Positions 3,530 through 56,234 of a stretch of DNA of 64,000 nt are shown here, one piece after another. The translations under genes were made by a program, and so were the position numbers. The notes beneath the pieces were generated by a model that did no database searches, was not told where the DNA came from, and worked only from the letters and a program-made list of their open reading frames with translations. Numbering within the stretch: the stretch's first letter is position 1; the number at the start of each line of letters is the position of its first letter. The stretch comes from an uncultured bacterium (GTDB lineage Bacteria > Krumholzibacteriota > Krumholzibacteriia > WVZY01 > JAKEHA01), in contig CBDUWU010000001.1 in assembly GCA_965371015.1 (NCBI GenBank), positions 1,368 to 65,367 of the forward strand. The letters run 5' to 3'.

Positions 3530-6174
3530 AGATCAACTGGACCATCATCAAGGCGATTTCACGACGCGACCTGAGACTGTATTTCAGTAATCCCACCGGA
3601 TACGTATTTATAACGCTGTTCATCTTCCTGAGCGCGGCGGCGGCGTTCTGGCGCGAACGCTTTTTTTTGAACAACCTCGCCAACCTGGACCAGTTAAACG
3701 ATGTATTTCCCTTTCTGCTCCTGTTTTTTATCCCCGCCATTACGATGGGGGTCTGGGCGGACGAACGGCGACAGGGAACCGACGAGTTGTTACTCACGTT
3801 GCCCGCGACGAATCTGGAAGTGGTCCTCGGCAAGTATTTCTCCACGCTGGGTATTTATACGGCGGCCGTGCTGCTGTCTCTGAGCCACCTCGTGGTCCTC
3901 TTCTGGCTGGGCAAGCCCGACCTGGGGTTGATGTTGTCCAACTACATGGGATACTGGCTCATCGGCGCGGCGTTCATTTCGATCGGGATGCTGGCGTCGC
4001 TGTTGAGTTTCAATGCGACCGTGGCGTTCATTCTTGGGGCGATATTCTGTGCCGGACTCGTTTACATAGAGCCGATACTCGGCGTGTTCGGCAGAGACGC
4101 CGAGTCGATGGTCTCCAGTATCGCCGTATTTCCGCACCTCGATGACCTGACCAGGGGCGTCGTCAGCCTGAGCGCGGTCGTTTATTTTCTTTCGATTACC
4201 GGTTTGCTGCTGTATCTCAACGTGGTTCTGCTGGGACGGCGGCACTGGCCACAGGAGACGGGCAGACTTCGGATGGGTGCCCACCAGTCGGTCCGGGTGC
4301 TGGCGCTGGTCGTTGCGCTCATCGCGTTCAATACCCTTCTCGGGCGGGGAAGCGTCCGCGTCGACATGACCGCGGAGCGCCTCCACACGCTGTCCAGCGA
4401 AACCCGCACGCTGATCTCGGAGATCTCCGTCGACAGGCCCGTGTTCGTGCAGGCTTATATCAGCCCGGAAGTCCCGCGCAACTATGTACAGGCGCGGCGT
4501 GACCTCGTCGACTACCTCAAGGACATCGCCGCCGTCGGTGGAGACCGGGTGAAGCTGGTGATACACGACGTGGAGCCGTACAGTGAAGAGGCGAGAGAAG
4601 CGAGGGACAAGTTTGGAATCATGGCGATGGAGGTTCCGGGAATCGAAGGCAGCCGGGCGAACGTCTCGACCGTCTTCATGGGCGTGGCCTTCACGTGTGG
4701 AGCAGAAGAGGATATCATTCCGTTCTTCGACCGCGGCCTGCCCGTCGAATACGAGTTGGCGCGAAGCATACGGGTCGTCGCCCGGACGCAACGCAAACGG
4801 ATCGGCGTTGTGACGACGCAAGCCAATATTTTCGGCGGATTCGATTTCAACACTTTTGCCAGCAAGCCGGTGTGGTCCGTGGTAGAAGAGCTGGAGAAGC
4901 AGTACGAAGTACTGCAGATAACGGCGGCCGATTCGATGACTGAGACCCTGGACGGTCTGCTCGTCGCGCTTCCGTCGTCGCTATCCCAGGAAGAACTGGA
5001 CAATCTCCAGTCCTTCATCGAACTCGGCATGCCGACGCTGTTGCTGGTCGACCCGTTGCCCATCGTCGAGATCGGCCTCTCGCCCTCGGAGGACGCGGGG
5101 GCAAACGTCAACCCGTTCATGCGTAACCGGGGGCCGCAGCCCAAGCCGAAAGGCGACATTCAGGTTTTTCTGCAGAACCTGGGTGTTGGCTGGAACAAGG
5201 CCCAGATCATCTGGGACGCTTACAACCCCCACCCCGACCTCGCGAACGTTCGGCCCGAGATTGCGTTTATCGGCAGGGGAAACAAGAATCCCGACTCGTT
5301 CAACGACGGCTTTCCCGCCGTGGCCGGGTTGCAGGAGCTGGTGCTTCTGTTCCCGGGCACGGTGAACAAGACGCAGTCGCCCGATTTCACGTTCGAGCCG
5401 TTGGTCAGGACGAGCAAGGTGTCGGGCACGCTGCACTATAACCAGGTCGTGCAACGGTCGTTCTTTGGTGTGGGGCTGGCGCCGGGCAATATCCCGCACT
5501 ACCCGACCGGCGGTGATTACGTGCTCGCCGCCCGCGTTCACAGCGCGTCGGCCGAAGAAGGGGGAATCCATGTAATCGTCCTTGCCGATCTGGATTTCAT
5601 CTCGGAGCAGTTCTTCGAGATTCGCAAACGGGGAATCGAAAATCTCAATTTCGACAACATATCGTTTTTCCTCAATTGTATCGACGTCCTCGTCGGCGAC
5701 GACTCGTTCATCGCGCTCCGCAACCGCCGTGTCAAGCACCGCACGCTGACCACGGTGGAGGAAAAAGTCAGGGCATTCGCGGAGATACGTGCCGTCGAGG
5801 AACAGCAGGCCGAGATGGAAGCGCAGCGTGCGCTGTCTCAGGCCCAGCAACGGCTCGACAAGAATGTCGCCGAGGTAAGGATGCGCGATGATCTCGACGA
5901 GCAGACGAAGAGCATCATGGCGAGGAACCTGCAGGAGGTCGAGAACCGGCGTCTGGAGGCGGCCAAGTCGTCGATCGAATCAGAGCGAAACGTAAAGATC
6001 GAACGCAGCGAGGAAGCCATGGAAACACAGGTACGCGCGATACAGAGCAATATCAAGACGCTCGCCGGATTGCTTCCGCCAATCCCCGTGTTTGCGCTGG
6101 GCGTGCTGATTTTTCTCAAACGGCGGCGCCGCGAAAAAGAGGGCGCGGCAGCGGCAAGAAGGTTGAGGAGTTAG
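3526..6174 (+). CDS. fused ABC-2 permease (GldF-like, N-terminal ~240 aa, 6 TM) and GldG-like auxiliary domain (C-terminal ~640 aa) with coiled-coil and C-terminal TM anchor
   Basis: N-terminal hydrophobic ABC-2 permease-like region, then a large extracytoplasmic domain of GldG/ABC-type-uncharacterised-transport-system type; C-terminal coiled coil and TM (PPIPVFALGVLIFLKRRRRE). Confidence 0.75.
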   Translation: MKINWTIIKAISRRDLRLYFSNPTGYVFITLFIFLSAAAAFWRERFFLNNLANLDQLNDVFPFLLLFFIPAITMGVWADERRQGTDELLLTLPATNLEVVLGKYFSTLGIYTAAVLLSLSHLVVLFWLGKPDLGLMLSNYMGYWLIGAAFISIGMLASLLSFNATVAFILGAIFCAGLVYIEPILGVFGRDAESMVSSIAVFPHLDDLTRGVVSLSAVVYFLSITGLLLYLNVVLLGRRHWPQETGRLRMGAHQSVRVLALVVALIAFNTLLGRGSVRVDMTAERLHTLSSETRTLISEISVDRPVFVQAYISPEVPRNYVQARRDLVDYLKDIAAVGGDRVKLVIHDVEPYSEEAREARDKFGIMAMEVPGIEGSRANVSTVFMGVAFTCGAEEDIIPFFDRGLPVEYELARSIRVVARTQRKRIGVVTTQANIFGGFDFNTFASKPVWSVVEELEKQYEVLQITAADSMTETLDGLLVALPSSLSQEELDNLQSFIELGMPTLLLVDPLPIVEIGLSPSEDAGANVNPFMRNRGPQPKPKGDIQVFLQNLGVGWNKAQIIWDAYNPHPDLANVRPEIAFIGRGNKNPDSFNDGFPAVAGLQELVLLFPGTVNKTQSPDFTFEPLVRTSKVSGTLHYNQVVQRSFFGVGLAPGNIPHYPTGGDYVLAARVHSASAEEGGIHVIVLADLDFISEQFFEIRKRGIENLNFDNISFFLNCIDVLVGDDSFIALRNRRVKHRTLTTVEEKVRAFAEIRAVEEQQAEMEAQRALSQAQQRLDKNVAEVRMRDDLDEQTKSIMARNLQEVENRRLEAAKSSIESERNVKIERSEEAMETQVRAIQSNIKTLAGLLPPIPVFALGVLIFLKRRRREKEGAAAARRLRS

Positions 6175-7550: not shown

Positions 7551-7582
7551 GTCCCGCCCGGGCGCTGACGAGAACAAAAAAA

Positions 7583-7610
7583 GGACCGGTTCACACCGGT
7601 CCTTTTTTTT
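7583..7610. terminator. bidirectional rho-independent terminator shared by the convergent ABC operon and the ferredoxin gene
   Basis: GGACCGGT-tcac-ACCGGTCC perfect 8-bp stem followed by T8, and preceded by A7 on the other side. Confidence 0.75.
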
Positions 7611-10974: not shown

Positions 10975-11065
10975 GGAGAGATGCGAGAGCTGGCTTAATC
11001 GGCACGACTGGAAATCGTGTGTATGCGGAAGTGTACCGAGGGTTCGAATCCCTCTCTCTCCGCCA
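10975..11065 (+). tRNA. tRNA-Ser (anticodon GGA), class II with long variable arm
   Basis: GGAGAGA/TCTCTCC acceptor stem, anticodon loop CTGGAAA, T-loop GGTTCGAATCC, 3' GCCA. Confidence 0.85.
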
Positions 11066-11192
11066 TCCATTTATCCCGCGAAACGCCACGCGGGGACTCA
11101 CCCCGACGTGACTCCAAACCCCTTCCGCCCGATTCAGCCGTAACCGCATTTGCGGTCTTGCCCTCCCCCGCTCGATCCGCTATCATTCCCGC

Positions 11193-11282
11193 GGAGAGAT
11201 GCCAGAGCGGTTGAATGGGGCGGTCTCGAAAACCGTTGAGTGCGCAAGTGCTCCGGGGGTTCGAATCCCCCTCTCTCCGCCA
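11193..11282 (+). tRNA. tRNA-Ser (anticodon CGA)
   Basis: near-identical to E. coli tRNA-Ser(CGA): GGAGAGATGCC...GGTCTCGAAAACC...GGGGGTTCGAATCCCCCTCTCTCCGCCA. Confidence 0.85.
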
Positions 11283-11308
11283 TTTTTTTGATATTACCGG
11301 AATACGGT

Positions 11309-11384
11309 GGGGATGTAGCTCAGTTGGGAGAGCACCTCGTTCGCAACGAGGGGGCCGGCGGTTCGAGTCCGCTCATCTCCACCA
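11309..11384 (+). tRNA. tRNA-Ala (anticodon CGC)
   Basis: GGGGATGTAGCTCAGTTGGGAGAGC; G3-U70 Ala identity pair; anticodon loop TTCGCAA; encoded CCA. Confidence 0.85.
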
Positions 11385-11410
11385 TTTGAAATCTGACGCA
11401 GAACTGTTAA

Positions 11411-11692
11411 AGAGATCGTGCTAGACGGGGTGTTAGCGGTACCCTCTTCCCGCAATCCGCTATAGCGGGGTCGAATTCCCTCCCGCGGGCGACCGGGGTC
11501 GATGTTCACGATCGTGGAAGTGGCGTCGATGGTCAGGTCCCGCGCAATGGTCACCCACGAACCCCGTCAGGACCGGAAGGTAGCAGCGGTAACTGGATCT
11601 GATCATGTGATGCGGGGTCACCTGTCCGGAGTTAACCCGCGGTCGTGTCACGGGTCCGGCGTTCAACGGTGGGTGCACGATCTCTTTTTTTT
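11411..11692 (+). ncRNA. ffs: signal recognition particle RNA, large Bacillus-type (~275 nt), with U-tract terminator
   Basis: domain IV motif GTCAGGACCGGAAGGTAGCAGCGGTAA at 11566-11592 (about 20/22 match to bacterial GUCAGGUCCGGAAGGAAGCAGC); 5' AGAGATCGTGC (11411-11421) is exactly complementary to 3' GCACGATCTCT (11675-11685), giving a terminal helix followed by T8; sits immediately upstream of dnaX as in Bacillus. Confidence 0.6.
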
Positions 11693-45697: not shown

Positions 45698-48046
45698 TCA
45701 CCGGTGCGTTTCGTCCCCGGTGCCGGCGTCGAAGCGGACGGCGGCCCGCTCGCCCGGCGACAGCTGTATAACGTCCCCGAACGAACGCCCCGATTTGACG
45801 GCGTGGAGACGGTACTCGCCGGGGGCGAGTTTGCCGAAGCGGACCATACCCCGGGGGCCGGTCACGAGCGTCCAGGTCCCGTCGATTGTCACCCGCCAGC
45901 CCGCCGCGTCGTCGGCGTGGATTTCGACGGCGACCTCGCCCGAATCGGACACCTCGTAGTGGTCGAGGACGCCGGTAAAGACCGCGTACGCCTGATCGCG
46001 CTGATACCACGATTCGGCCAGCCTCAACTCCTCTTCCACCGTGCCGATCGAGGGCGGCGCGACAACGATCGCCGGGCACGCCGTCTGCTGGAGCGGATAG
46101 GTCACGGTATCGAACGGGCCCCGCGGCGGGACGTCGAGGCGGGAGGACATCGCGGCGAGCACGCTGGCCGCCATTCGTGACCCCGTGGAACTCCCGGGAA
46201 AGTAATACGTCGTGGCCACCAGCGGACTGTCCACCGGCGCCGTCCGGTGGCGGATTTCGATGTAGCGATTGGCGCCGAACCCGTTGGTCATGCGGGCGAT
46301 GTCTTCCGGCGTTCGCACCTCGTCGTTCGTCCGTGTGAGCTTGACCGCGGCCCCGGCGGACCTCAGGTATCCGGCCAGGTAGCGCGCCACCTGGAGGTTG
46401 GCGTGGGCGCCGGACAGGCCCAGCTTCCCGATTCCCGTCGTGGAGGCCTTTCCGCCCTCGGGATCGAGTACGAATCTCAGCCCGGTGAGGGCGCCCCCGA
46501 ACCACGGGATCAGGTCGACCGTGTCGGGTGGAGAGTCGCCCGCGACGAAGAGAGGGATGTATCCCGGCGCTTCGATCGAAAGGAACGATTCGGCCGAATC
46601 GGCGGTCCCGGCGTTCGACGGGTCTTTGCGCCGGTAGATGAACTCGCCCGCTTGTGAGACGTTCGTTCCGGTCCCGCCGTCGCGCCGGATGACGGCAACG
46701 GTCACCGGTTGTCCCGTCACCGCGTTCCGCACAATCCCCGCCCGGGTTTCCGGGCCGGATTCGGATTCGCGGGTGAGAGAGTGCGCGAACGATTTTCCGC
46801 GGCACTCGACACGGATGGTGGCCGCGTCGCCGCCGGGTTCGGTATGGACGATCACGTCGATCGATCCGGCCGCCACCACCGTCTCGACGGTATCCGCCGC
46901 CGCGACGATACGTACCCCGGTACCGTCCGCTACGGGCAGTCCCCGGCGGTCGAGCAGCCGGACCCTCGCCCGCACGGCGCCGGCGCCGGCGGGAGCCATG
47001 GGCGGCTGGACGTCGAAAGCGGCAAATTCGGGTTCGAAATCGATCGCAAATCGCGTGGAGAGCAGGGGGCTCGTGTTGCCGCCGGTGTTCCTCGCCGAAA
47101 CGGTCGCCTCATACGCACCGTTGGGGAGGTCCCACGGCGGGTTCCAGGCCGCCCGCTGTGCCAGCAGGTCGACGCGGGGCAGAACGGGGCGTCCATTGAG
47201 CGTCATGGTGATGCCGTCGGGATCGATACCGGCGCCCCCGTCGTCTTCGAGCGAATACACGAGTTCGGGCACTGTCTCGTGGAGCGAGTCGACCGGCGAC
47301 AGGCAAGTTACACGGGGAATCCCGCGGCCGAAATACTCGAGGAGGCCGAGGAAGTAGGCTTCGGCCTCCAGTTTCTGTGCCTCCGAGAGCTTGATTTTTT
47401 CTTCCACCCCCGGGTTGGTCAGGTAGCTGGATTCGCCCAGCACGGCGGGCGCGCCGGATTCGCGCAGGATCAGGTAATTGCCCTGCCGGACGATGCCGTT
47501 CTCGATGCCGAGATTCCGCATGAGGTGGCGGTGGACGGCGAACGCCAGATCCAGCGATGCCGGGTCGCCGGCCCGGTAGTAAGTTTCAACCGAGTTCTTC
47601 GCCGGATCTCTCTTTGGCTGGGCGTTGTGGTGGATCGAAATGAGTACGTCGGGGCGGATCGAATCCGCCATCGCCACGCGGGTCCGGAGGTCCGAAGCGA
47701 GCGACGAATCCTCTTCGGTGAGAAAGTCGCGGTCGACCGAACGGGTCATGAAGGCGTCGGCGCCGGCCTCCCGGAGCAGGCCCCACAGGTAGAGCGATAC
47801 ACCGAGGTTGACGCTCGCTTCTTCGAGGCCGTCGCGCCCGACGGTGCCCCGGAAATGCCCCCCGTGACCGGCGTCGATGAGAATCCGGCGGCCCTTCAGC
47901 GCTGAGGGATCGATTCGTGGGAGCGGTTCCGACAGACCGCGGTATAATCGGTCGATGGAATACTGCTTCGGGGGCGCCCCGCACGAGGCGGCGATGCCGG
48001 CCAGAACGGCCAGGAGCGCTAGCGGGATTTGAAGGCGTTGTTTCAT
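45698..48046 (-). CDS. lipoprotein N-acetylmuramoyl-L-alanine amidase with two Amidase_3-like domains, the second apparently degenerate
   Basis: lipobox LAGIAASCG; first domain RILIDAGHGGHFRG...LISIHHNA...YYRAG; second domain (aa ~515-700) LRFVLDPEGGKAST...YIEIRHR with Zn-ligand His positions replaced. Confidence 0.75.
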   Translation of the reverse strand: MKQRLQIPLALLAVLAGIAASCGAPPKQYSIDRLYRGLSEPLPRIDPSALKGRRILIDAGHGGHFRGTVGRDGLEEASVNLGVSLYLWGLLREAGADAFMTRSVDRDFLTEEDSSLASDLRTRVAMADSIRPDVLISIHHNAQPKRDPAKNSVETYYRAGDPASLDLAFAVHRHLMRNLGIENGIVRQGNYLILRESGAPAVLGESSYLTNPGVEEKIKLSEAQKLEAEAYFLGLLEYFGRGIPRVTCLSPVDSLHETVPELVYSLEDDGGAGIDPDGITMTLNGRPVLPRVDLLAQRAAWNPPWDLPNGAYEATVSARNTGGNTSPLLSTRFAIDFEPEFAAFDVQPPMAPAGAGAVRARVRLLDRRGLPVADGTGVRIVAAADTVETVVAAGSIDVIVHTEPGGDAATIRVECRGKSFAHSLTRESESGPETRAGIVRNAVTGQPVTVAVIRRDGGTGTNVSQAGEFIYRRKDPSNAGTADSAESFLSIEAPGYIPLFVAGDSPPDTVDLIPWFGGALTGLRFVLDPEGGKASTTGIGKLGLSGAHANLQVARYLAGYLRSAGAAVKLTRTNDEVRTPEDIARMTNGFGANRYIEIRHRTAPVDSPLVATTYYFPGSSTGSRMAASVLAAMSSRLDVPPRGPFDTVTYPLQQTACPAIVVAPPSIGTVEEELRLAESWYQRDQAYAVFTGVLDHYEVSDSGEVAVEIHADDAAGWRVTIDGTWTLVTGPRGMVRFGKLAPGEYRLHAVKSGRSFGDVIQLSPGERAAVRFDAGTGDETHR

Positions 48047-48130
48047 TACCCCTGCGATAGCAGAAATCGTCGGGTCCATCAAGGACTTTGGCCGGGAAGC
48101 GGGGCACCAAAAGGTTGGAATTAATAACGA

Positions 48131-48167
48131 TTGACGGTCAAAACAGGGCTGTGCTAGTTACTAGCAC
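48131..48167. promoter_or_regulatory. two perfect palindromes (TTGACgGTCAA and GTGCTAGTtACTAGCAC) in the amidase/selA divergent region; putative operator overlapping a promoter
   Basis: 11-bp palindrome at 48131-48141 (contains TTGACG -35-like hexamer) and 17-bp palindrome at 48151-48167 (contains extended -10-like TGcTAGTTA), 19 nt upstream of selA ATG. Confidence 0.4.
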
Positions 48168-48185
48168 GTCATCCGGACAGCAAAC

Positions 48186-49610
48186 ATGAGCGATAAAAAC
48201 AGCAAAGAGGCGCTGCGGGCGATTCCGCCCGTGGACGATATCCTGGCCGACGAGCGGCTCTCCGGTCCCAGGAAACAGCATCCGCGGTTTCCCTGGACCC
48301 GGCTGGTGAGGTCCGTCGTCACGGAGTATCGCGATCTGGGCAAGACGCCGACCGGTGTCGACCCCGCGTCCCGGGATTCTGTGCGGGACTGGGTCGTCAC
48401 TCGGGTGGGGCAGGCTTGCGGTGAACTGGAGCACGGGGGGCAGCGTCGCGTGATCAACGGGACCGGCGTGATCCTCCACACGAATCTGGGCCGCGCCGTT
48501 ATCGGCGCTGGTGCGCGCCGGGCCGTCGATGAAGCGCTTGCGCACTATATGAGCCTCGAGGTGGACCTCGAGAGCGGGCGGCGCAGCGAGCGGGCAACTA
48601 CGTTGAACCGCCTCGCGGCGCTGGCGACGGGGGCCGAAGACGCAATGGTTGTGAACAACAACGCGGCCGCCGTCTATCTCGTGCTCGGAGCGTTTTCTCC
48701 CCCGGGGCGGGTCATCGTGTCGCGCGGAGAACTGGTGGAAATCGGCGGCAGCTTCCGTCTGCCGGAAATCCTCCGGCACGCTTCTTCGGAGGTCATCGAG
48801 GTCGGGACGACCAACCGCACCTACGCCGAGGACTACGAAAAAGTCGCGGTGGAGGGGGACGTCCTGCTCAAGGTCCACAAGAGCAACTATGCCATCGAAG
48901 GGTTCGTCAGCGAGGCGTCTCACGTGGACCTGGTACGCGTCGCGGCCGCCAGGAACTGCCGGCTTGTTTACGACCTGGGAAGCGGCGCGGTGTTCGATTA
49001 TCGCGGGGCCGGAATCGGTGGCGATGAACCTGTCGCCGGCATAGTAGATGCCGGCGTGGATTGTGTGACCATGAGCGGCGACAAGCTGCTCGGGGGAGTG
49101 CAGGCCGGCATTATCGCCGGCAAGAAGGAAGTCCTCGCGTCGGTTCGGAACAACCCGCTGCGCCGGGCGGTGCGGATCGACAAGGTCACCGTCGCGGCTC
49201 TCCAGGATGTCCTGAGACAGTATCTGTTCGGACCGGGACCGGAATCCGGAGTACCCGTACTCGGGCAGGTCCTTGCCGGCCTGGATGTGGTCCGGGAACG
49301 GGCACGCAAGGTGGCTGAGGCCGTGGTCCGGAATCTGGGCGCGGGCGGCGGTCCGGACGTTTCCGCCGTCGACGATGACGCGGCCGTGGGTGGGGGGAGC
49401 TGGAGCTCGGAGTCGGTCGCTTCGGCCGCCGTCTGCATACGCTGCGACGGCGAAAAGGAAGCGGTCCGGCTGGCGCGCCGCCTGAGGTTGAATGACCCGC
49501 CCGTCGTTCCGCGGGTCAGGGGCGCCGAAGTTCGCATTAATATGAGATCGGTGATGCCGTACGAGGATGGGGAGCTCGGTGACGTTCTCGCCTCTGTGCT
49601 GGCGTTGTAA
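48186..49610 (+). CDS. selA: L-seryl-tRNA(Sec) selenium transferase
   Basis: VINGTGVILHTNLGRA, VNNNAAAVYLVL, SRGELVEIGGSFRLPE, PLP-lysine motif SGDKLLGGVQAGII - close to E. coli SelA throughout. Confidence 0.85.
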   Translation: MSDKNSKEALRAIPPVDDILADERLSGPRKQHPRFPWTRLVRSVVTEYRDLGKTPTGVDPASRDSVRDWVVTRVGQACGELEHGGQRRVINGTGVILHTNLGRAVIGAGARRAVDEALAHYMSLEVDLESGRRSERATTLNRLAALATGAEDAMVVNNNAAAVYLVLGAFSPPGRVIVSRGELVEIGGSFRLPEILRHASSEVIEVGTTNRTYAEDYEKVAVEGDVLLKVHKSNYAIEGFVSEASHVDLVRVAAARNCRLVYDLGSGAVFDYRGAGIGGDEPVAGIVDAGVDCVTMSGDKLLGGVQAGIIAGKKEVLASVRNNPLRRAVRIDKVTVAALQDVLRQYLFGPGPESGVPVLGQVLAGLDVVRERARKVAEAVVRNLGAGGGPDVSAVDDDAAVGGGSWSSESVASAAVCIRCDGEKEAVRLARRLRLNDPPVVPRVRGAEVRINMRSVMPYEDGELGDVLASVLAL

Positions 49611-49616
49611 CCATGA

Positions 49617-51161
49617 TTGACCGTTAGATTCGAAAGACGAGTCATGGAAAAGATATCTTCTTATAATATAGCAGTTTCTGTTGATACCTTAAGGGAAGGC
49701 TTTAATTCCGGCCAACTGGTGCCCGCGCTGCACGGGCCGCTGCAGTCTCTGCTGCCGCGGGTAACGCGCGCCGCTGCCGAAGCGCCGGCGTCCGTCTACC
49801 TGTTCTCCGCGGGAGATGGCGCCGAGGTCCGGGATCTGTTCGGATTTGCGCTTGTCGCCGCGCTGTCGCAGCAGATCCCGACGGCGTTGCTCGTCGATTG
49901 CGGATTTCTGGCGGTCGGCCTCAGCGGAGTCGTGCCGCAGAAAGACGCGCTCGGATTCCTCGACCTCCTGCTCTACGGGAGTTCGCTCGGCGTTATCACC
50001 CAGAAAACGAACGGCGGTGTCCACGTGGTGGGGGCGGGGTCCTTTCCGGTAACCAAGAATATGCCGTTCGTACTCAACGCTTTTGAGGAGGCGTCGCGCC
50101 GTCTCGTGTCGCAGTGTCGCTGCGCGGTCTTCTGCGGCCCCCTGTATAACGACGAAGGAGCACTCCACCCGCTGATCGGAGCCGTCGACGTACCGATTAT
50201 GGTGAGACTCGCCGGAACCGGGGGCTCCATCGTCGATCCTATCGAAGAGCAGATCTCCTCGAAGTGGGACTCGGAGTTGCTCAGCGTAAGAGTCACGCCC
50301 CGCGATGCCGCCGCCGCGCCGCCGCCAGCAACCGTGGCTACCGGAGTGGTCGACGAGAAACCCGTCGTCCCTGCGACTCCGGCGGCCGCGCCTCCATCGC
50401 AACATGAATTCGAGGAGATAGTCCCGCCCGCGCCACCGAGACCCGCCCGGGTCGAGACACCGAAACCCGCCCCGGCCCGGACACCGAAACCCGCCCCGGC
50501 CGAGGTTGCCCCGGTCGCTGATGTCGAATTCGAAGAGGAATCAACCGCGTCGCAGTACAAAGAGAAGAAATACTCATCGTTGGTTCCAAAAATCGCAACT
50601 GCTGTTGTCGCAACGGTTGTAGTCGTTTTCCTCGTGTGGTGGTTCAATGAGGAACGGACCGGCGGAGGCGGATCGGAACCTCCGCAGACGACAGGCTCGT
50701 CCGCTGTTTCGGATGTGGATGACGCCGGAGCCGAAACACCGACGGTGGTGGTGGTGGACAGCACGGTGGTGGACAGCACGGTGGTGGACGGCACGGCGGC
50801 GGTTGCCGTTGCCGCGGACACGACGGCCGCGCAGCCGGAACCGGAGCCGACCGGCGCGGCCGGCGCGGTCTCTTCCGACGACATACTCGTGATGGATGAC
50901 CTCGAAAACAACTGGGGTGGACAATACCTCATCCACATCAGTTCGTTCCGCGATTCGGGGAAAGCCCGAACCGAGGTCGGACAATTGACGTCCCGCGGAT
51001 TTTCGGTGTTCATCGTGTACCTGAATCTTGGTGCCAAAGGTTCGTGGTACCGCGTTTACGCCGGTCCCGTAGCGACACGCGAGGACGCGCGAAACATGAA
51101 AAAACTTCTGGACGATACGCCGGGGGTGCGTTTTACTCGCATATCGCAAATCGCGAATTAG
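49617..51161 (+). CDS. SPOR-domain protein with N-terminal degenerate ParA/MinD-like domain, proline-rich repeat linker and TM segment
   Basis: C-terminal YLIHISSFRDSGKARTEVGQLTSRGFSVFIVYLNLGAKGSWYRVYAGPVATREDARNMKKLLDD is SPOR-like; N-domain resembles ParA/MinD fold but with SAGDGAEV in place of Walker A; TM ATAVVATVVVVFLVWWF; start codon uncertain (49617 or 49644). Confidence 0.6.
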   Translation: MTVRFERRVMEKISSYNIAVSVDTLREGFNSGQLVPALHGPLQSLLPRVTRAAAEAPASVYLFSAGDGAEVRDLFGFALVAALSQQIPTALLVDCGFLAVGLSGVVPQKDALGFLDLLLYGSSLGVITQKTNGGVHVVGAGSFPVTKNMPFVLNAFEEASRRLVSQCRCAVFCGPLYNDEGALHPLIGAVDVPIMVRLAGTGGSIVDPIEEQISSKWDSELLSVRVTPRDAAAAPPPATVATGVVDEKPVVPATPAAAPPSQHEFEEIVPPAPPRPARVETPKPAPARTPKPAPAEVAPVADVEFEEESTASQYKEKKYSSLVPKIATAVVATVVVVFLVWWFNEERTGGGGSEPPQTTGSSAVSDVDDAGAETPTVVVVDSTVVDSTVVDGTAAVAVAADTTAAQPEPEPTGAAGAVSSDDILVMDDLENNWGGQYLIHISSFRDSGKARTEVGQLTSRGFSVFIVYLNLGAKGSWYRVYAGPVATREDARNMKKLLDDTPGVRFTRISQIAN

Positions 51162-51260
51162 CCGTACGCCGTTCTTCGCATGCCCGCGCGGGTTTCCGGC
51201 GCGGGCGGCGTGGAAATACGCATAGCGGCGCCTTTCAGTGTTAGCCTGGAGGACCAGCAT

Positions 51261-54200
51261 TTGAATCTCCGCAAGCTACAGATATTCGGGTTCAAGTCTT
51301 TTATGTCCCGCCTGGAACTCGATTTTTCACCCGGGATCACAGCTATCCTCGGACCCAACGGGTGCGGCAAGTCGAACGTTGTCGACGCCATCCGCTGGGT
51401 GCTCGGCGAACAGCGCACCCGTCTGCTGCGTAATACCAAGATGGAAAACGTCCTGTTCAACGGCACGCGTCTCCGCAAGCCGCTGGGTATGGCCGAGGTC
51501 TACATGACGCTTTCCAACGAGGACCACGGTCTTTCGGTCGATTACGAGGAAGTGACGATCGGCCGCAAGTTGTACCGGAGCGGAGTCAGCGAATACACGC
51601 TGAACAACGAGCCCACCCGGCTCAAGACGATTAAAAACCTGCTTGTCGACACAGGGTTGGGCAACAACGCCTACGCGATCATCGAGCGCGATATGGTGGA
51701 CAAGGTTCTCAGCGAGAAGGAACAGGAAAAACGCAATCTGCTGGAAGAAGCCGCGGGTGTGATGCGGTACCGGATCCAGCGGGAAGAAGCTGAGCGCAAG
51801 ATCAAGTTGACCGAGCAGGACCTCCTCCGTCTCGGTGATATCATACAGGAACTCGACAAGGAGATCCGGTCGCTGAAATACCAGATGGCCAAGGCCCGCC
51901 GTTACGTACGGCTGAGGGACAAGTCCAACGAAATGGAAGCGGTACTCCTCAAGGCGACGCTTTACGACCTGCTCATACGCGAGGACGAACTGAACAAGGA
52001 ACGCGAGCGGCACGAGGGAATCCGCCTCGCCGACGACAACGAAATCTCCACGCGCGAAAACAGGCTGCAGGAAAGGCGGATTGAGTCATCGGAGCAGGAA
52101 CACTCGCTTCAGGGGCTGCGTGAGACCCGGTACAACGTCAGCAGTAACCTCCAGCAGCACGAGGAAAAGATCGCCGTTCACACGGAGAGGGTCAACAGCA
52201 GCCGCGGCCGGATTGTCGAGGATCGCGCCGAAATCGACCGGGCGCGCGAGAAGCTCCACAATCTGGCCAGCGACCTCGAACGCTACAACAACGAAGTGGG
52301 CGGGCGCGGAAACCGGCTCGAGACCCTTCGCGAGGAACTCTCAACGCAAGAGGAATCATTGCGCTCGGTGTCCAGGCGTCTCGACGAAGCCCGAAAGGAC
52401 TTGCGGGAGAAGAAACAACTGGCTCTGAATCTGGTCGAGGCGAAGGCCAGGGAGGAAGGGCTCGTCGAGCATCTCGAGTCGACGCTGACCGAGCTGGAGG
52501 GCAAACGCGAGTCGATCGAGAATCAAGTCTCGGACCTGTCGGAGGAAGAATCCCGAAGGGTATCGGAACTCGGCGAGGTGGAACACAGGTTCAACGAAGC
52601 CGGCCGGCAGCTCGACAGCAGGCGTGATGATTCGAGAAAATTCACCTCGGAGCTGGACCGCCTGGCGGAAGAAACTGCGTCCTGCGAGAAAGCGCTTTCC
52701 GAAGCAGTTCGCAACCAGACCAAACTACGCGAAAAAAAGGAATTCCTGGACAAAATCAAGCGGGAACACACCCGCTGGTCTGACGATACTCTGGGAGCGC
52801 ACGAAGGGTTGAGCGGAGTCCTCTCGGACTTCGTGCACGTGGACAAGGAATACCGCAAGTGTTTCGAAGCCTGTCTCGCGCCCGTGCTCAACGGCGTCGT
52901 GGCCCGCTCCCGCGAAGACGCCGTCGTGTGCATTCGTGAATTCGTCGCCGCCGACAGCGGTCGTGTCCAGATACTGATTTCCCTGTCGGATCCGGACGCC
53001 GCCCCCCCGGGGGGCGAGACGGTCAGCGGCGAGGGGATCGTCGGGCCCGCTTCGTCGCTCGCCAGGTTCGACAAAAGCATCGAAGCCTATATGCGTTCGT
53101 ATCTGTCCGGCGTGGTGGTGGTGGAGGACACCGACGCGGCGCTCGATGTGATCGAGAGCGGCCGGGTGGCGCGAGTCGTAACGCTCGACGGTGTGTTTTT
53201 CGACGGACCGGCGCGTATTATCGTCGCCGGCTCGGATGACGTGGAAACCACGCTTCTCGATTACGACGCCAAACTGACCGAACTCTCGGCGGGCCTCGAG
53301 CACCTCGAAGGCGCGGGGCGTGAGTTGGAGCAGCTGCGCGACTCCCTCGCCCGTGACCGCGAGAGAGTTCAACGGGATGTCGCCGAGGCGCGCACGACGA
53401 TCGCCGCGCAGGAGCAGGCGGTCGAGTCGTTGCGCGGTACGCGGCGCGACCGGGAGTTGGCCGTCGTTCGGGTCAAGGAAAAGATCACGTCGGCCGAATC
53501 CGCTCTGGCGGAAAACGGGGAATCGGTATCAGCCGTAAAAATCCGGCTGGAGGCCACGACGAATCGTCCGAACAGCGGTGCTGCCGCGAATGCGGGCGCC
53601 GGCGACGTGGATGACGTAGATGTGGCGCGGACCGAAGAACTGACCCTCGACCTCGAACGCGAAAAGGAATTGCTGGCCGAGTCGGTCGGAAGGCTGAAGC
53701 TCGAGAACGTCTCGGTGTCGGGAGAAGTGGACACGCTTCAGACCAAGATTCGCAACGCGGAAAAACTCGACGAGGAGCTCAAGCAGTTGATGCAGGCGCG
53801 GAAAGAAGACGAAACGCGGTGCCAGGAACAGATCACGGTGAGCGAAGAGGACGTTGCGAGTCTCCGGTCGGGCATTTCGGGCCTCCACGCGGAAAAAGAA
53901 ACGGTCGAGCGGGAGATCGAACAGATCAGCGAAGCCCACGAGGAAACCAAACGAGAGTGCGACGAACTGGAAAAAGAGCTTAAGCAGATGAAAGACCAGC
54001 GCGACGCCAAACGCGAGAACCTCGAACGAGTCAGCGTCGAGACGGCGTCGCTGGAAACCCGAGTCTCCGGTCTGCTGGAAAAAGCCGAGGAGAATTTCGA
54101 TCAGGACCTTCGGCCATACCTGAAGAACCGGGAGTTGTTCGACCCCTCAGAATGGGAAAACTTCAACCGCGAGGCGCTGTCGCAGCTCAAGGCCAAGGTC

Positions 54201-54878
54201 GAGAACTTTGGACCTGTCAACATGCTCGCTCTCGATGAATACAACGAGAAGAATGAACGGTTCGAGTTTCTCAGCAAGCAGAAGGCCGATCTGGAGGAAG
54301 CGAAGAACTCGCTCACCCTGGCGATCAGGAGAATCAACAAGGAAGCGCGCCGGTTGCTGCGGGAGACTTTCGAACAAGTCCGCCAGAATTTCAAGCAGAC
54401 GTTTCTCACTCTGTTCGACGGTGGTGAGGTCGACCTGTTGTTCGTAGATTCGGACGATCCGCTGGAAGCCAATATCAAAATCGTCGCCAACCCCAAGGGT
54501 AAAAAGCTCCACGATATCGCGAGCCTCTCGAGTGGCGAGCGCGCGCTGGTCGCGTTGTCGCTCCTCTTCGGGATCTATCTGGTCAAGCCGAGCCCCTTCT
54601 GCGTGTTCGACGAAGTCGACGCTCCGCTCGATGACGCGAACATCGCCCGTTTCGTCAGGCTGCTCAAGTCGTTTACGGATCGCACCCAGTTCATCGTAAT
54701 CACGCACAACAAGAAGACGATGGAAGCGGCGGACAACCTTTACGGCGTCACCATGGAAGAGCCGGGGATTTCCAAGCTGGTATCCATCCGCCTCGACGAG
54801 GCGGAACGGTTCCGGCACCACCGCACAGGGACGAATCAGTCGGACGACGCACCTTCGGCGGCGGCGCCGGCGGCCTGA
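51261..54878 (+). CDS. smc: chromosome segregation protein SMC (TTG start)
   Basis: N-terminal Walker A [21 protein letters not shown], long coiled-coils with central hinge, C-terminal [42 protein letters not shown] RBS 7 nt before TTG 51261. Confidence 0.9.
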   Translation: [1205 protein letters not shown]

Positions 54879-54918
54879 CCGCAAGCCCCCCGACACGCCG
54901 GCACTGGCACCCGCAAGT

Positions 54919-55803
54919 ATGTTCAACCTCAAGGAAAAGCTGCAAAAGACGAGAGAGAATTTCGTCAATCCTCTGAAAAGGATATTTCAACGCGGTGGGG
55001 AGCTGAGCGATGACGACGAGTACGAGCTCGAGGAGTTGCTGCTCAGCGCGGACATCGGGGTGGACGCGTGTGACCGTATCGTGGAAGTACTGCGCGAGAG
55101 CGGCCACGAAAGCGACTACCGCGAGTGTTTGCGTCGCGAATTTCTGGACCTGCTCGGTGACGGGGAAGACGCGCGCCGAGACAATGTGACGGGCACCCGC
55201 GCCATCGTGGTCATCGGCGTGAACGGTGTCGGCAAAACGACGAGTATCGCCAAGTTGGCCAACTTCTTCAAGGAACGTGGGGAGTCGGTGGTACTGGCGG
55301 CGTGCGACACCTTCCGGGCGGCGGCGGTGGACCAGCTGCGTGTCTGGGCCGACCGGGTGGGCGTCGACTTGATCCAGCACCAGGAAGGTGGTGACCCGGG
55401 CGCCGTCGCATTCGACGCGTGCAAAGCGGCGAAAGCCCGAGGGACGGATGTGGTCGTCATCGATACAGCGGGCCGCCTGCACACTCGCGTCAATCTGATG
55501 GAAGAACTGAAAAAGATCAAACGCGTCTGCGAAAAGGTGCTGGGCCCGGATTCGGTGGAAACCCTCCTCGTTCTCGACGCCAACCTGGGGCAGAACAGCC
55601 TCATCCAGGCGTCCGAGTTCACGAAAGCTCTGGGCACCGACGGCATCATACTCACAAAGCTGGACAGCACAGCCAAGGGCGGCATTGTCATTGCGATCAA
55701 GCAGTCCCTGGGAATTCCCGTGCGCTACATCGGGGTCGGTGAACAGATCGGCGACTTCGACTCCTTCTCCGCCGACACATTTGTCGAAGCCCTCCTCGGA
55801 TGA
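54919..55803 (+). CDS. ftsY: signal recognition particle receptor FtsY (NG-domain-only form)
   Basis: VIGVNGVGKTTSIAKLA, DTAGRL, TKLDSTAKGG SRP GTPase motifs; 294 aa. Confidence 0.9.
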   Translation: MFNLKEKLQKTRENFVNPLKRIFQRGGELSDDDEYELEELLLSADIGVDACDRIVEVLRESGHESDYRECLRREFLDLLGDGEDARRDNVTGTRAIVVIGVNGVGKTTSIAKLANFFKERGESVVLAACDTFRAAAVDQLRVWADRVGVDLIQHQEGGDPGAVAFDACKAAKARGTDVVVIDTAGRLHTRVNLMEELKKIKRVCEKVLGPDSVETLLVLDANLGQNSLIQASEFTKALGTDGIILTKLDSTAKGGIVIAIKQSLGIPVRYIGVGEQIGDFDSFSADTFVEALLG

Positions 55804-55902
55804 ATGCCCCGGGTCCGGTACTGTCGTCCCCCTCGGCACCGGTGGCTGGGCCGGGTGGCGTAGGGAGTTAGTATAAAAGTAGTTATGGGTTGTGTAGGTC
55901 CT

Positions 55903-55931
55903 TGACATTCCCTTCACAAAGGCGTATCGTC
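55903..55931 (+). promoter_or_regulatory. candidate promoter TTGACA-17-TATCGT for the riboflavin operon
   Basis: TTGACA 55903-55908, TATCGT 55926-55931, ~8 nt before riboswitch P1. Confidence 0.3.
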
Positions 55932-55939
55932 ATCATATG

Positions 55940-56059
<120 letters not shown>

Positions 56060-56234
56060 TCATGGCAGGCGTACACGGCGCGCCCCTTTCCGGGGGCGGT
56101 GCAGGTTGACGTCCCCTCGGGGATGTCCGCCGGCTTATATATCCCTGTATTCTCCCTCGATTTCCCCCGATCGTTACCGGTAAAAGCCGCACAACTTGTA
56201 ATACGACCACGCGCCGGCCCCGACGCCGGCCGAT

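What the first reader, a model, noticed from the sequence alone, without database searches (positions are those of the whole stretch)
48083..48185. Perfect 17-bp and 11-bp palindromes overlapping a promoter-like sequence between divergent amidase and selA genes
GTGCTAGTtACTAGCAC (48151-48167) is a perfect 8-1-8 palindrome 19 nt upstream of the selA ATG. It overlaps an extended -10-like TGcTAGTTA. The palindrome TTGACgGTCAA (48131-48141), 20 nt further upstream, contains a TTGACG -35-like hexamer. This is the geometry of a dimeric repressor operator occluding the promoter. Selenium metabolism and envelope hydrolase genes are both commonly under tight control, but no regulator gene is adjacent.
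Basis: seen in the sequence. Interest (0 to 1): 0.55.

Follow-up and report, generated by a model that had tools for sequence, protein, structure and literature searches.

The report
Conserved selA promoter with incidental palindromes
The two palindromes are really there, but comparison with 15 related genomes shows that what evolution preserves is an ordinary bacterial promoter (-35 box, TG-extended -10 box, start site) for the selA-SPOR-smc-ftsY gene cluster, and that the palindromic symmetry is a recent, unconserved by-product of it.

Summary
Both palindromes are at the stated coordinates, between a divergent amidase gene and selA, in an uncultured bacterium related to Latescibacterota. The promoter reading holds. 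In 16 lineages (SelA identity 53-100%) the invariant features are TTGAC[G/C], a 17-18 bp spacer, TRTG at -17 to -14, and TA at -12/-11. This is the sigma-70-type '-35/TGn' architecture, and the genome's riboswitch and tRNA promoters look alike. The operator reading is not supported. The 11-bp palindrome is symmetric only in relatives at 71% identity or above. The 17-bp palindrome is perfect only in the window's own species group, 5-7/8 in the near clade and 0-2/8 in the far clade. Every arm substitution is one-sided. No second copy exists in about 158 kb of clade DNA, and three relatives' genomes in a truncated 596-Gb scan matched only at selA. No regulator lies within 5 kb. The 17-mer maps onto extended -10, -10 hexamer, discriminator and a YRY start element. 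A clade-specific repressor site is not excluded (about 0.2), because the near clade keeps a 7/8 dyad. This is an ordinary feature of low interest. The intergenic region also holds a conserved promoter that appears to give a leaderless amidase mRNA.

The parts
48120..48130 (+). A/T-rich block (ATTAATAACGA) directly upstream of the -35 hexamer; UP-element-like
   Evidence: Largely conserved in the near clade, and A/T-rich (TATAAA/TATAGA) in the far clade. The UP-element role is inferred from position and composition (PMC2613000).
48131..48136 (+). -35 hexamer TTGACG (5/6 match to TTGACA) of the selA promoter
   Evidence: TTGAC[G/C] is invariant in all 16 lineages. The genome's FMN-riboswitch promoter has TTGACA.
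48131..48141 (.). 11-bp palindrome TTGACGGTCAA: the -35 hexamer plus a fortuitously complementary start of the spacer
   Evidence: Symmetry is 5/5 only in relatives with 71% SelA identity or more, and 0-2/5 in all others (TTGACGTGTAA, TTGACGATATA, TTGACCGGTTT and so on). Its occurrence is at chance level.
48137..48154 (+). 18-bp spacer whose 3' end carries TGTG (48150-48153, positions -17 to -14), the TRTG/TGn extended -10 motif
   Evidence: The spacer sequence varies and its length is 17 or 18 bp. TGTG (TATG in L008) is invariant in 16 lineages. The motif definition is in PMC2613000 and bioRxiv 10.1101/2025.01.23.634641.
48155..48160 (+). -10 hexamer TAGTTA: T-12 and A-11 present, T-7 absent (a weak -10)
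   Evidence: TA is invariant. The third base is G in 15 of 16 lineages and A in L210. The last two bases vary (TA, AA, AC, CG, AG).
48151..48167 (.). 17-bp perfect palindrome GTGCTAGTTACTAGCAC, spanning about -16 to +1 of the promoter
   Evidence: Symmetry per lineage is 8,8,7,6,5,6,6,7,7,7,7 (near clade) and 0,2,1,0,0 (far clade). Every arm substitution is one-sided. It is unique in the window.
48165..48169 (+). CACGT: predicted transcription start region with overlapping YRY 'start' triplets, 6-8 nt after the -10 hexamer
   Evidence: cACg is conserved in the near clade. The YRY start element and a start centred 7 bp after the -10 are described in bioRxiv 10.1101/2025.01.23.634641. The start site itself is inferred, not measured.
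48186..49610 (+). selA (L-seryl-tRNA(Sec) selenium transferase), first gene of the cluster
   Evidence: Pfam SelA 1.5e-110 and Se-cys_synth_N. The N-terminus is conserved in orthologues.
49617..55803 (+). Downstream co-oriented genes: SPOR-domain protein (49617-51161), smc (51180-54878), ftsY (54919-55803); probable operon with selA
   Evidence: Pfam. The gaps are 6, 18 and 40 nt, and the scan found no convincing + strand terminator between genes. Synteny is conserved in near and far clades. Co-transcription is inferred.
45698..48046 (-). Divergent N-acetylmuramoyl-L-alanine amidase gene, start reassigned to the ATG at 48046
   Evidence: Pfam Amidase_3 1.5e-49. It has a lipoprotein-type signal peptide from 48046. 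The CAT is invariant, and the DNA upstream of it is invariant at every position, which is unlike coding sequence.
48054..48082 (-). Amidase promoter on the minus strand: TTGATG (48082-48077), 17-bp spacer ending in TGC (48062-48060), -10 TATCGC (48059-48054), and exactly 7 nt to the ATG, which predicts a leaderless mRNA
   Evidence: CTsCGATAsCAGAA and CAAG are invariant in 9 near-clade sequences. The 7-nt distance from the -10 to the ATG is the same in window, L087, L089, L090, L158 and L176. It resembles the genome's TATCGT -10 boxes.
48091..48115 (.). Non-conserved filler between the two divergent promoters
   Evidence: Deleted in all relatives at 74% SelA identity or below, and the most variable stretch among close strains.

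Best explanation
The region is the core promoter of a selA-SPOR-smc-ftsY gene cluster, set back-to-back with the promoter of the divergent amidase gene. It is a sigma-70-type promoter of the '-35/TGn' kind. It has an A/T-rich upstream block, a near-consensus -35 (TTGACG), an 18-bp spacer ending in the extended -10 motif T-17 G-16 T-15 G-14, and a weak -10 hexamer (TAGTTA, lacking T-7). A CACG start region lies 6-8 nt downstream, giving a leader of about 18-20 nt with no obvious Shine-Dalgarno sequence. The strong -35 and the TG extension compensate for the weak -10. Both palindromes are by-products. The 11-mer is the -35 hexamer plus five spacer bases that happen to be complementary in one sub-lineage. 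The 17-mer arises because the extended -10 (GTGnTAGT) is mirrored by the last -10 base, the discriminator and the start triplet (ACTAsCAC), and a single recent substitution made the symmetry perfect. What is shown: the sequence, the conservation pattern and the similarity to other promoters of the same genome. What is inferred: RNA polymerase binding, the start site and co-transcription of the four genes.
For: (1) In 16 lineages with SelA identity of 53-100% and the same gene order, TTGAC[G/C], TRTG and TA of the -10 are invariant at a 17/18-bp spacing, while the spacer sequence and the leader diverge freely. (2) The genome's constrained promoters have the same architecture: FMN riboswitch TTGACA-17-TATCGT and tRNA-Ser TTGCCC-17-TATCAT. 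(3) Symmetry decays with distance (8/8 to 5-7/8 to 0-2/8). Every substitution in the arms is one-sided, including C to A at -13 and G to A in the hexamer in strains sharing about 90% DNA identity. (4) The 11-mer's right half is not conserved below 71% identity. (5) There is no second copy in the window or in 158 kb of clade DNA beyond the chance expectation of 1.65. (6) Every part of the 17-mer maps to a described promoter element: TRTG and the -35/TGn class (PMC2613000), and the YRY start element about 7 bp after the -10 (bioRxiv 10.1101/2025.01.23.634641). (7) The neighbouring amidase promoter has the same TGn-plus-weak-hexamer design.
Against: The -10 hexamer lacks the normally near-invariant T at -7 in all 16 lineages, so the consensus scanner does not call it. 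The G at the third hexamer position and the near-clade block ACTAsCACG are more conserved than RNA polymerase contacts alone would usually demand. A 7/8 dyad in the near-clade ancestor is unlikely by chance at a fixed position (about 4e-4 per register), although the site was picked out because it is palindromic. Two CTAGs 7 bp apart are unusual in a CTAG-depleted genome. Two relatives (L007, L015) lack a recognisable copy of the motif. No transcription start data exist.
Confidence: 0.72

Rival explanations
1. The region is a promoter plus an operator. In the near clade (SelA identity 63% or more), a dimeric helix-turn-helix repressor of unknown family binds the dyad GTGnTAGT-N-ACTAsCAC. The dyad covers -16 to +1, so binding would occlude the -10 and repress selA-SPOR-smc-ftsY. 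The window's lineage would merely have the best version of the site.
For: The dyad is 7/8 symmetric in L001, L089, L090, L158 and L176 and 8/8 in the window and L212. Arm positions 1-3, 5 and 8 are invariant in 11 near-clade lineages although the spacer and the distal leader diverge. The geometry is the classical one for repression by occlusion. Protein operators do not require compensatory changes, so one-sided changes at positions 4 and 14 are compatible with degenerate positions. The CTAG pair is statistically unusual.
Against: Each conserved base is also explained by a promoter element (TRTG, TA, YRY start). L003 (5/8), L006 (6/8), L087 (6/8) and L210 (6/8) have degraded symmetry while keeping the promoter elements. 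The far clade, with the same gene order, has no dyad (0-2/8). Among strains sharing about 90% DNA identity, 2 of the 4 substitutions in the 75-nt core promoter fall in the left arm. No second site was found in the window or in 158 kb of clade DNA. The clade genomes reached by the truncated GTDB scan match only at selA. No regulator gene lies within about 5 kb. Conservation of the right arm continues into the leader (GTCA...GGAC.AG.AAA.ATG), so it does not stop at the dyad boundary.
Confidence: 0.2
2. The 17-mer acts as an RNA hairpin in the selA leader (a stability, attenuation or translational element) or as a DNA cruciform.
For: As RNA it would fold into a 7-bp stem with a 3-nt loop inside the minimum-free-energy structure.
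Against: The predicted start lies at the 3' end of the palindrome, so most of it would not be transcribed from this promoter. There are no compensatory double changes and at least five one-sided, pair-breaking changes. The folding energy is not unusual (z = -0.87; 30 of 200 shuffles fold as well). No Rfam family matches: the only hit at E of 1 or below is a sub-threshold match on the other strand at 47985-48083, at 21.7 bits against a gathering score of 52. The element is absent from the far clade.
Confidence: 0.03
3. The site has no function. Both palindromes and the promoter-like hexamers are chance features of a short A/T-richer intergenic region, conserved only because the relatives are close.
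For: Palindromes with 8-base arms occur at about 9 per 64 kb by chance. The simple consensus scan finds no promoter here.
Against: The hexamers are invariant at SelA identities down to 53%, while the intervening spacer, the leader and the inter-promoter filler are scrambled or deleted. That pattern is the signature of selection on those bases.
Confidence: 0.05

Closest known systems
Sigma-70 '-35/TGn' promoters (for example E. coli gapA P1 and phage T4 Pminor) and the Gram-positive -16 region TRTG promoters
   Same: A good -35 hexamer, a 17-18 bp spacer, TG at -15/-14 (here the full TRTG at -17 to -14), and a -10 hexamer that matches the consensus poorly and is compensated by the other elements (PMC2613000).
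   Different: The element is found in an uncultured relative of Latescibacterota with no experimental data. The hexamer is TAGTTA, with T-7 missing in every lineage. The unusual third-position G is conserved across deep divergence.
Promoter-occluding palindromic operators of dimeric repressors (LacI, LexA, TrpR type)
   Same: There is dyad symmetry of 17 bp, and it overlaps the -10 and the start site, which is the textbook geometry for repression by steric occlusion.
   Different: Symmetry is not conserved beyond one species-level group. There is no cognate regulator nearby, no second site, and no experimental binding.
E. coli trp operator (GTACTAGTTAACTAGTAC; recalled from memory, not tested here)
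   Same: It is a CTAG-containing dyad overlapping the -10 region of a promoter with a TTGAC-type -35. The half-site GTGCTAGT resembles GTACTAGT in 7 of 8 bases.
   Different: The right-hand CTAG is absent from most relatives (ACTACCAC). No TrpR gene was looked for, and a link between tryptophan and selA has no rationale.
Leaderless bacterial mRNAs (for the neighbouring amidase promoter)
   Same: The -10 hexamer ends exactly 7 nt before the ATG in six lineages, so the predicted start coincides with the start codon.
   Different: This is predicted from spacing only. No 5'-end data exist.

Membership tests
Sigma-70-type promoter with extended -10 (-35/TGn class) | A -35 hexamer close to TTGACA | tested here: met
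   TTGACG (5/6) at 48131-48136. TTGAC[G/C] is invariant in 16 lineages.
Sigma-70-type promoter with extended -10 (-35/TGn class) | Spacer of 16-18 (up to 19) bp between the hexamers, tolerant of sequence change but not of length change | tested here: met
   The spacer is 18 bp in 13 lineages and 17 bp in 3. Its sequence is unconserved apart from the 3' TRTGn.
Sigma-70-type promoter with extended -10 (-35/TGn class) | TG at -15/-14 (TRTG at -17 to -14) | tested here: met
   TGTG at 48150-48153. TGTG occurs in 15 lineages and TATG in 1. The motif definition is in PMC2613000.
Sigma-70-type promoter with extended -10 (-35/TGn class) | A -10 hexamer with T-12 and A-11 | tested here: met
   TA is invariant in 16 lineages.
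Sigma-70-type promoter with extended -10 (-35/TGn class) | A -10 hexamer with T at -7 | tested here: not met
   Position 6 is A, C or G in all lineages, so the consensus scan does not call the promoter. Weak hexamers are characteristic of the -35/TGn class (PMC2613000), so this lowers the match to the canonical -10 but not to that class.
Sigma-70-type promoter with extended -10 (-35/TGn class) | The same architecture is used by other promoters of the same genome | tested here: met
   FMN riboswitch TTGACA-17-TATCGT, tRNA-Ser TTGCCC-17-TATCAT and TTGATT-16-TATCGT, amidase TTGATG-17(TGC)-TATCGC.
Sigma-70-type promoter with extended -10 (-35/TGn class) | A transcript 5' end 6-8 nt downstream of the -10 | not testable with these tools
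   No transcript data are available. A conserved CACG with YRY triplets lies at the expected place.
Palindromic operator of a dimeric repressor | Dyad symmetry at the site | tested here: met
   8/8 arms in the window.
Palindromic operator of a dimeric repressor | Both half-sites conserved in orthologous promoters | tested here: inconclusive
   Symmetry is 5-7/8 in near-clade lineages and 0-2/8 in far-clade lineages. All changes are one-sided. The conserved bases coincide with promoter elements.
Palindromic operator of a dimeric repressor | Further sites in the genome (a regulon), or a cognate regulator gene next to the site | tested here: not met
   There is one site in the 64-kb window with 3 mismatches allowed. 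There is nothing beyond chance in 158 kb of clade DNA, which is mostly the orthologous region. The clade genomes in the truncated GTDB scan match only at selA. The neighbours are a periplasmic binding/TPR protein, TonB_C, amidase, SelA, SPOR, SMC and FtsY. Whole genomes of the clade were not available, so the test is partial.
Palindromic operator of a dimeric repressor | Binding by a protein and regulation of the promoter | not testable with these tools
   This needs a footprint, a pull-down or genetics.
TrpR-type (CTAG) operator | Two CTAG-centred half-sites at the trpO spacing (8 bp, from memory) | tested here: not met
   The CTAGs are at 48154 and 48161, 7 bp apart. The right-hand CTAG is missing in L003, L006, L087, L089, L090, L158 and L176.
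Cis-regulatory RNA hairpin | Base pairs maintained by compensatory changes, and unusual stability | tested here: not met
   There are 0 double changes and at least 5 one-sided, pair-breaking changes. The z-score is -0.87. No Rfam match reaches threshold.

The most novel reading that the evidence does not exclude
In one clade of uncultured relatives of Latescibacterota, the dyad GTGnTAGT-N-ACTAsCAC is the operator of an unidentified repressor encoded elsewhere. It would control a conserved operon that joins selenocysteine synthesis (selA) to cell-division and chromosome functions (SPOR protein, SMC, FtsY), through a CTAG-containing site in a genome that otherwise avoids CTAG.
Probability: 0.15. 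Interest if true: 0.4.

Novelty: new member of a known kind. Interest (0 to 1): 0.15.

Why it matters
The finding matters only modestly. It gives a well-footprinted pair of divergent core promoters in a phylum-level lineage with no cultured members and no promoter data. It shows that classical sigma-70 elements (TTGACA-like -35, TRTG extended -10, YRY start) apply there. It corrects the amidase start codon and predicts a leaderless mRNA. It is also a cautionary example: a perfect palindrome overlapping a promoter can be produced by the promoter's own elements, and comparison with orthologues separates the two. If the residual operator hypothesis were true, it would point to regulation of a selA-smc-ftsY operon, which is not known anywhere.

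Tried and rejected
(1) Regulon search. The 17-mer was searched in the window with 3 mismatches allowed, and in all near- and far-clade loci. Only the orthologous selA sites were found, plus one 3-mismatch hit, against a chance expectation of 1.65.

(2) Genome-collection scan for GTGNTAGTTACTANCAC. It was useful mainly for retrieving two more orthologous promoters (L158, L176). L157 ('FCB group bacterium') lies inside a methyltransferase-like ORF and was discarded.

(3) The idea that this 17-mer type is the operator of one widespread regulator family. Perfect palindromes are over-represented among the hits (41 of 73 on one strand and 19 of 46 on the other, against 25% expected). However, the neighbouring genes are heterogeneous (integrases in Planctomycetota, an NTP transferase, DUF5802, oxidoreductases) and no regulator emerged, so it gave no lead for the selA site.

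(4) Literature search for six exact palindrome variants: no paper.

(5) A shared bidirectional -35. The reverse strand of the 11-mer reads TTGACC, but there is no -10-like hexamer 16-18 bp further on. The amidase promoter is a separate conserved block.

(6) Sigma-54 (GG-N10-GC), CRP/FNR (TGTGA-N6-TCACA) and parS readings were considered by eye and rejected on spacing.

(7) RNA readings: Rfam at gathering and permissive thresholds and folding gave nothing.

(8) An exact look-up of the window's SelA failed, and two look-ups returned gene maps without DNA.

(10) The metagenome scan returned mostly distant SelA loci at 45% identity or below, from other phyla, which were not informative for footprinting.

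Full report
OBSERVATION. The sequence is as described. TTGACGGTCAA lies at 48131-48141, GTGCTAGTTACTAGCAC at 48151-48167, and the selA ATG at 48186. The flanking genes are SelA (Pfam PF03841, E 1.5e-110, plus the Se-cys_synth_N domain) on the + strand and an Amidase_3 protein on the - strand. One detail needs correcting. The amidase ORF listed from the TTG at 48082 almost certainly starts at the ATG at 48046. That start gives a lipoprotein-type signal peptide (MKQRLQIPLALLAVLAGIAASC). The CAT is invariant in relatives. The 36 nt upstream of it are conserved at every position, which is unlike coding sequence.

The statistics are mixed. Perfect palindromes with arms of 8 or more occur 16 times in the window against 9.0 +/- 3.2 in shuffles, so a palindrome of this size is not remarkable. 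The 11-mer is at chance level. On the other hand, CTAG is about 16-fold depleted (14 observed against 226 expected from composition), and the only two CTAGs within 12 nt of each other are the pair in this palindrome. The 17-mer is unique in the window with up to 3 mismatches. Sequence statistics alone therefore cannot decide the matter, and comparative data are needed.

ORGANISM AND CONTEXT. The closest named SelA homologues are from Latescibacterota and Krumholzibacteria MAGs at about 55% identity. No name is attached to the source itself. The gene order is conserved in every relative examined, down to 50-55% SelA identity. In order, it is a periplasmic-binding/TPR protein, then TonB_C and the amidase on the minus strand, then selA, a SPOR-domain protein and smc on the plus strand. 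In the window, ftsY follows smc. The short gaps (6, 18 and 40 nt) and the lack of a convincing terminator suggest one operon, selA-SPOR-smc-ftsY. It ends before the FMN-riboswitch promoter at 55902. No regulator gene lies within about 5 kb on either side.

PHYLOGENETIC FOOTPRINT. I collected the amidase-selA intergenic region from 16 lineages that carry the motif.
- The near clade has 11 lineages: window, L212, L001, L210, L003, L006, L087, L089, L176, L158 and L090, with SelA identity of about 63-100%.
- The far clade has 5 lineages: L008, L009, L013, L012 and L014, at 53-55%.

Anchored on the conserved blocks, the invariant features in all 16 are TTGAC[G/C], a 17- or 18-bp interval, TGTG (TATG once), one free base, and TA[G/A]T. 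The spacer sequence, the leader and the stretch between the two divergent promoters are scrambled or deleted. Conserved hexamers at a constrained distance, with free sequence in between, are the signature of a promoter.

Numbering TAGTTA (48155-48160) as -12 to -7 puts TGTG at exactly -17 to -14. That is the TRTG form of the extended -10 element (PMC2613000; bioRxiv 10.1101/2025.01.23.634641). It also puts TTGACG 18 bp upstream. The hexamer lacks T at -7 in every lineage, so the simple scanner misses it. The review describes a class of '-35/TGn' promoters in which a good -35 and the TG extension compensate for a poor -10. The genome's own promoters whose starts are constrained use the same architecture: TTGACA-17-TATCGT before the FMN riboswitch, and TTGCCC-17-TATCAT and TTGATT-16-TATCGT before the tRNA-Ser genes.

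THE PALINDROMES. The 11-mer is symmetric (5/5) only in relatives at 71% SelA identity or above. Elsewhere the bases after the -35 hexamer are TGTAA, ATATA, GCGGT, GGTTT, GATTT or CTTTT, giving 0-2/5. It is the -35 hexamer plus a fortuitous continuation.

The 17-mer scores 8/8 in the window and in the near-identical strains L212-L214. It scores 7/8 in L001, 6/8 in L210, 5/8 in L003, 6/8 in L006 and L087, 7/8 in L089, L176, L158 and L090, and 0-2/8 in the far clade. Every substitution within the arms is one-sided and lowers symmetry:
- Pair 4/14 reads CG, AG, AC, CC or TC.
- Pair 6/12 goes from AT to AA.
- Pair 7/11 goes from GC to AC or GA.
- Pair 3/15 goes from GC to GG.

There is no double change. 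In L210/L211, which share about 90% DNA identity with the window, two of the four substitutions in the 75-nt core promoter fall in the left arm. Both leave the TG and TA of the promoter intact.

The right arm is fairly well conserved in the near clade (ActAsCACg), but that conservation runs on into the leader (GTCA..GGAC.AG.AAA.ATG) and does not stop at the dyad boundary. Its outer CAC coincides with the expected start site. The preprint reports that starts are centred 7 bp after the -10 and are marked by a YRY/YRR 'start' triplet. Here CAC and CGT lie 6-8 nt after the hexamer. Every part of the 17-mer is therefore accounted for by a promoter element: G-16 T-15 G-14, n, T-12 A-11 G T T A-7, the discriminator CTA(G), and the start CAC.

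REGULON TEST. There is no second site in the window. There is none in about 158 kb of clade DNA beyond one 3-mismatch hit, against 1.65 expected, although this DNA is largely the orthologous region. The three clade genomes it reached (L131, L158, L176) were hit only at the selA promoter. The test is partial, because only exact matches were found, the scan was truncated, and no whole clade genomes were available. It gives no support for a regulon.

RNA ALTERNATIVES. No Rfam family matches, either at gathering thresholds or permissively. The only hit at E of 1 or below is a sub-threshold match on the other strand, inside the amidase 5' end. The RNA fold is not unusual (z = -0.87), and there are no compensatory changes. 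The predicted start lies at the 3' edge of the palindrome, so it would mostly not be transcribed.

THE OTHER HALF OF THE INTERGENIC REGION. The invariant block next to the amidase start reads, on the minus strand, as follows:
- TTGATG (48082-48077)
- a 17-bp spacer ending in TGC (48062-48060)
- TATCGC (48059-48054)
- exactly 7 nt to the ATG at 48046

That 7-nt distance is the same in window, L087, L089, L090, L158 and L176. This is a second TGn-type promoter and it predicts a leaderless amidase mRNA. The 25 nt between the two promoters (48091-48115) are deleted in the relatives at 74% identity or below.

VERDICT. The added interpretation, two operators for a dimeric repressor, is not supported. 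The symmetry is young, unconserved and unaccompanied by other sites or a regulator, and it is explained by the promoter's own elements. A residual possibility (about 0.2) is that the near clade's 7/8 dyad also serves as a repressor site. That would need whole-genome motif scans of the clade or binding experiments. Two relatives (L007 and L015) lack a recognisable copy of the motif, which shows that the promoter has been remodelled in some lineages. Overall this is an ordinary, well-conserved core promoter in an unstudied lineage. Interest is low, and it is a new member of a known kind.

Noticed in passing
window 48046-48082 (- strand): A conserved TGn-type promoter (TTGATG-17-TATCGC) ends exactly 7 nt before the amidase ATG in six lineages. 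It predicts a leaderless mRNA and moves the amidase start from the TTG at 48082 to the ATG at 48046.
   Followed up: partly
L092, L118, L121, L124, L133, L137, L138, L147, L148, L156, L169, L184, L189 (Planctomycetota loci): A perfect palindrome GTGGTAGT(T/A)ACTACCAC with conserved flanks, including an outer GTGCGG...CCGCAC inverted repeat, lies about 20-25 nt upstream of a tyrosine-recombinase (Phage_integrase) gene of about 360 aa. It may be a recombination or regulatory site of a mobile-element family.
   Followed up: partly
loci L091-L209 (one search hits): Among exact matches to GTGNTAGTTACTANCAC across all phyla, the two free positions are complementary far more often than the 25% expected (41 of 73 and 19 of 46). 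The excess is only partly explained by the homologous Planctomycetota copies. Archaeal loci L117 and L167, and actinobacterial L145 and L164, show tandem or adjacent copies.
   Followed up: partly
window, whole: CTAG is about 16-fold under-represented (14 observed in 64 kb, against 226 expected from base composition and 26 from a trinucleotide model), while TCGA and CCGG are in excess.
   Followed up: no
window 55902-56062: An FMN riboswitch (Rfam RF00050, 117 bits) lies ahead of a rib operon (ribD, lumazine-binding, ribBA in the orthologous L210). Its promoter, TTGACA-17-TATCGT, lies immediately upstream.
   Followed up: partly
window 7576-7609: The longest perfect inverted repeat in the window (15-bp arms, 4-nt loop, AAAAAAAGGACCGGT TCAC ACCGGTCCTTTTTTT) has the form of a bidirectional intrinsic terminator.
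   Followed up: no
window 10975-11680: A cluster of tRNA-Ser(GGA), tRNA-Ser(CGA) and tRNA-Ala(CGC) is followed directly by a large-type bacterial SRP RNA (RF01854, 195 bits).
   Followed up: no
L090 3570-3650; L003 and L006 around 3950-4001: The selA leader length varies widely between lineages: about 10 nt from the -10 to the ATG in L090 (nearly leaderless; the gene caller over-extended the ORF to 533 aa), 25 nt in most lineages, and 45-65 nt in L003 and L006.
   Followed up: no
L007 1-142; L015 2740-3001: Two relatives (59% and 50-52% SelA identity) lack a recognisable TTGACS-N-TGnTAGT motif. L007 looks like a deletion that fuses the upstream block to TGTG-TTAC. L015 has a leader of about 170 nt and a different A/T-rich promoter-like stretch.
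   Followed up: no
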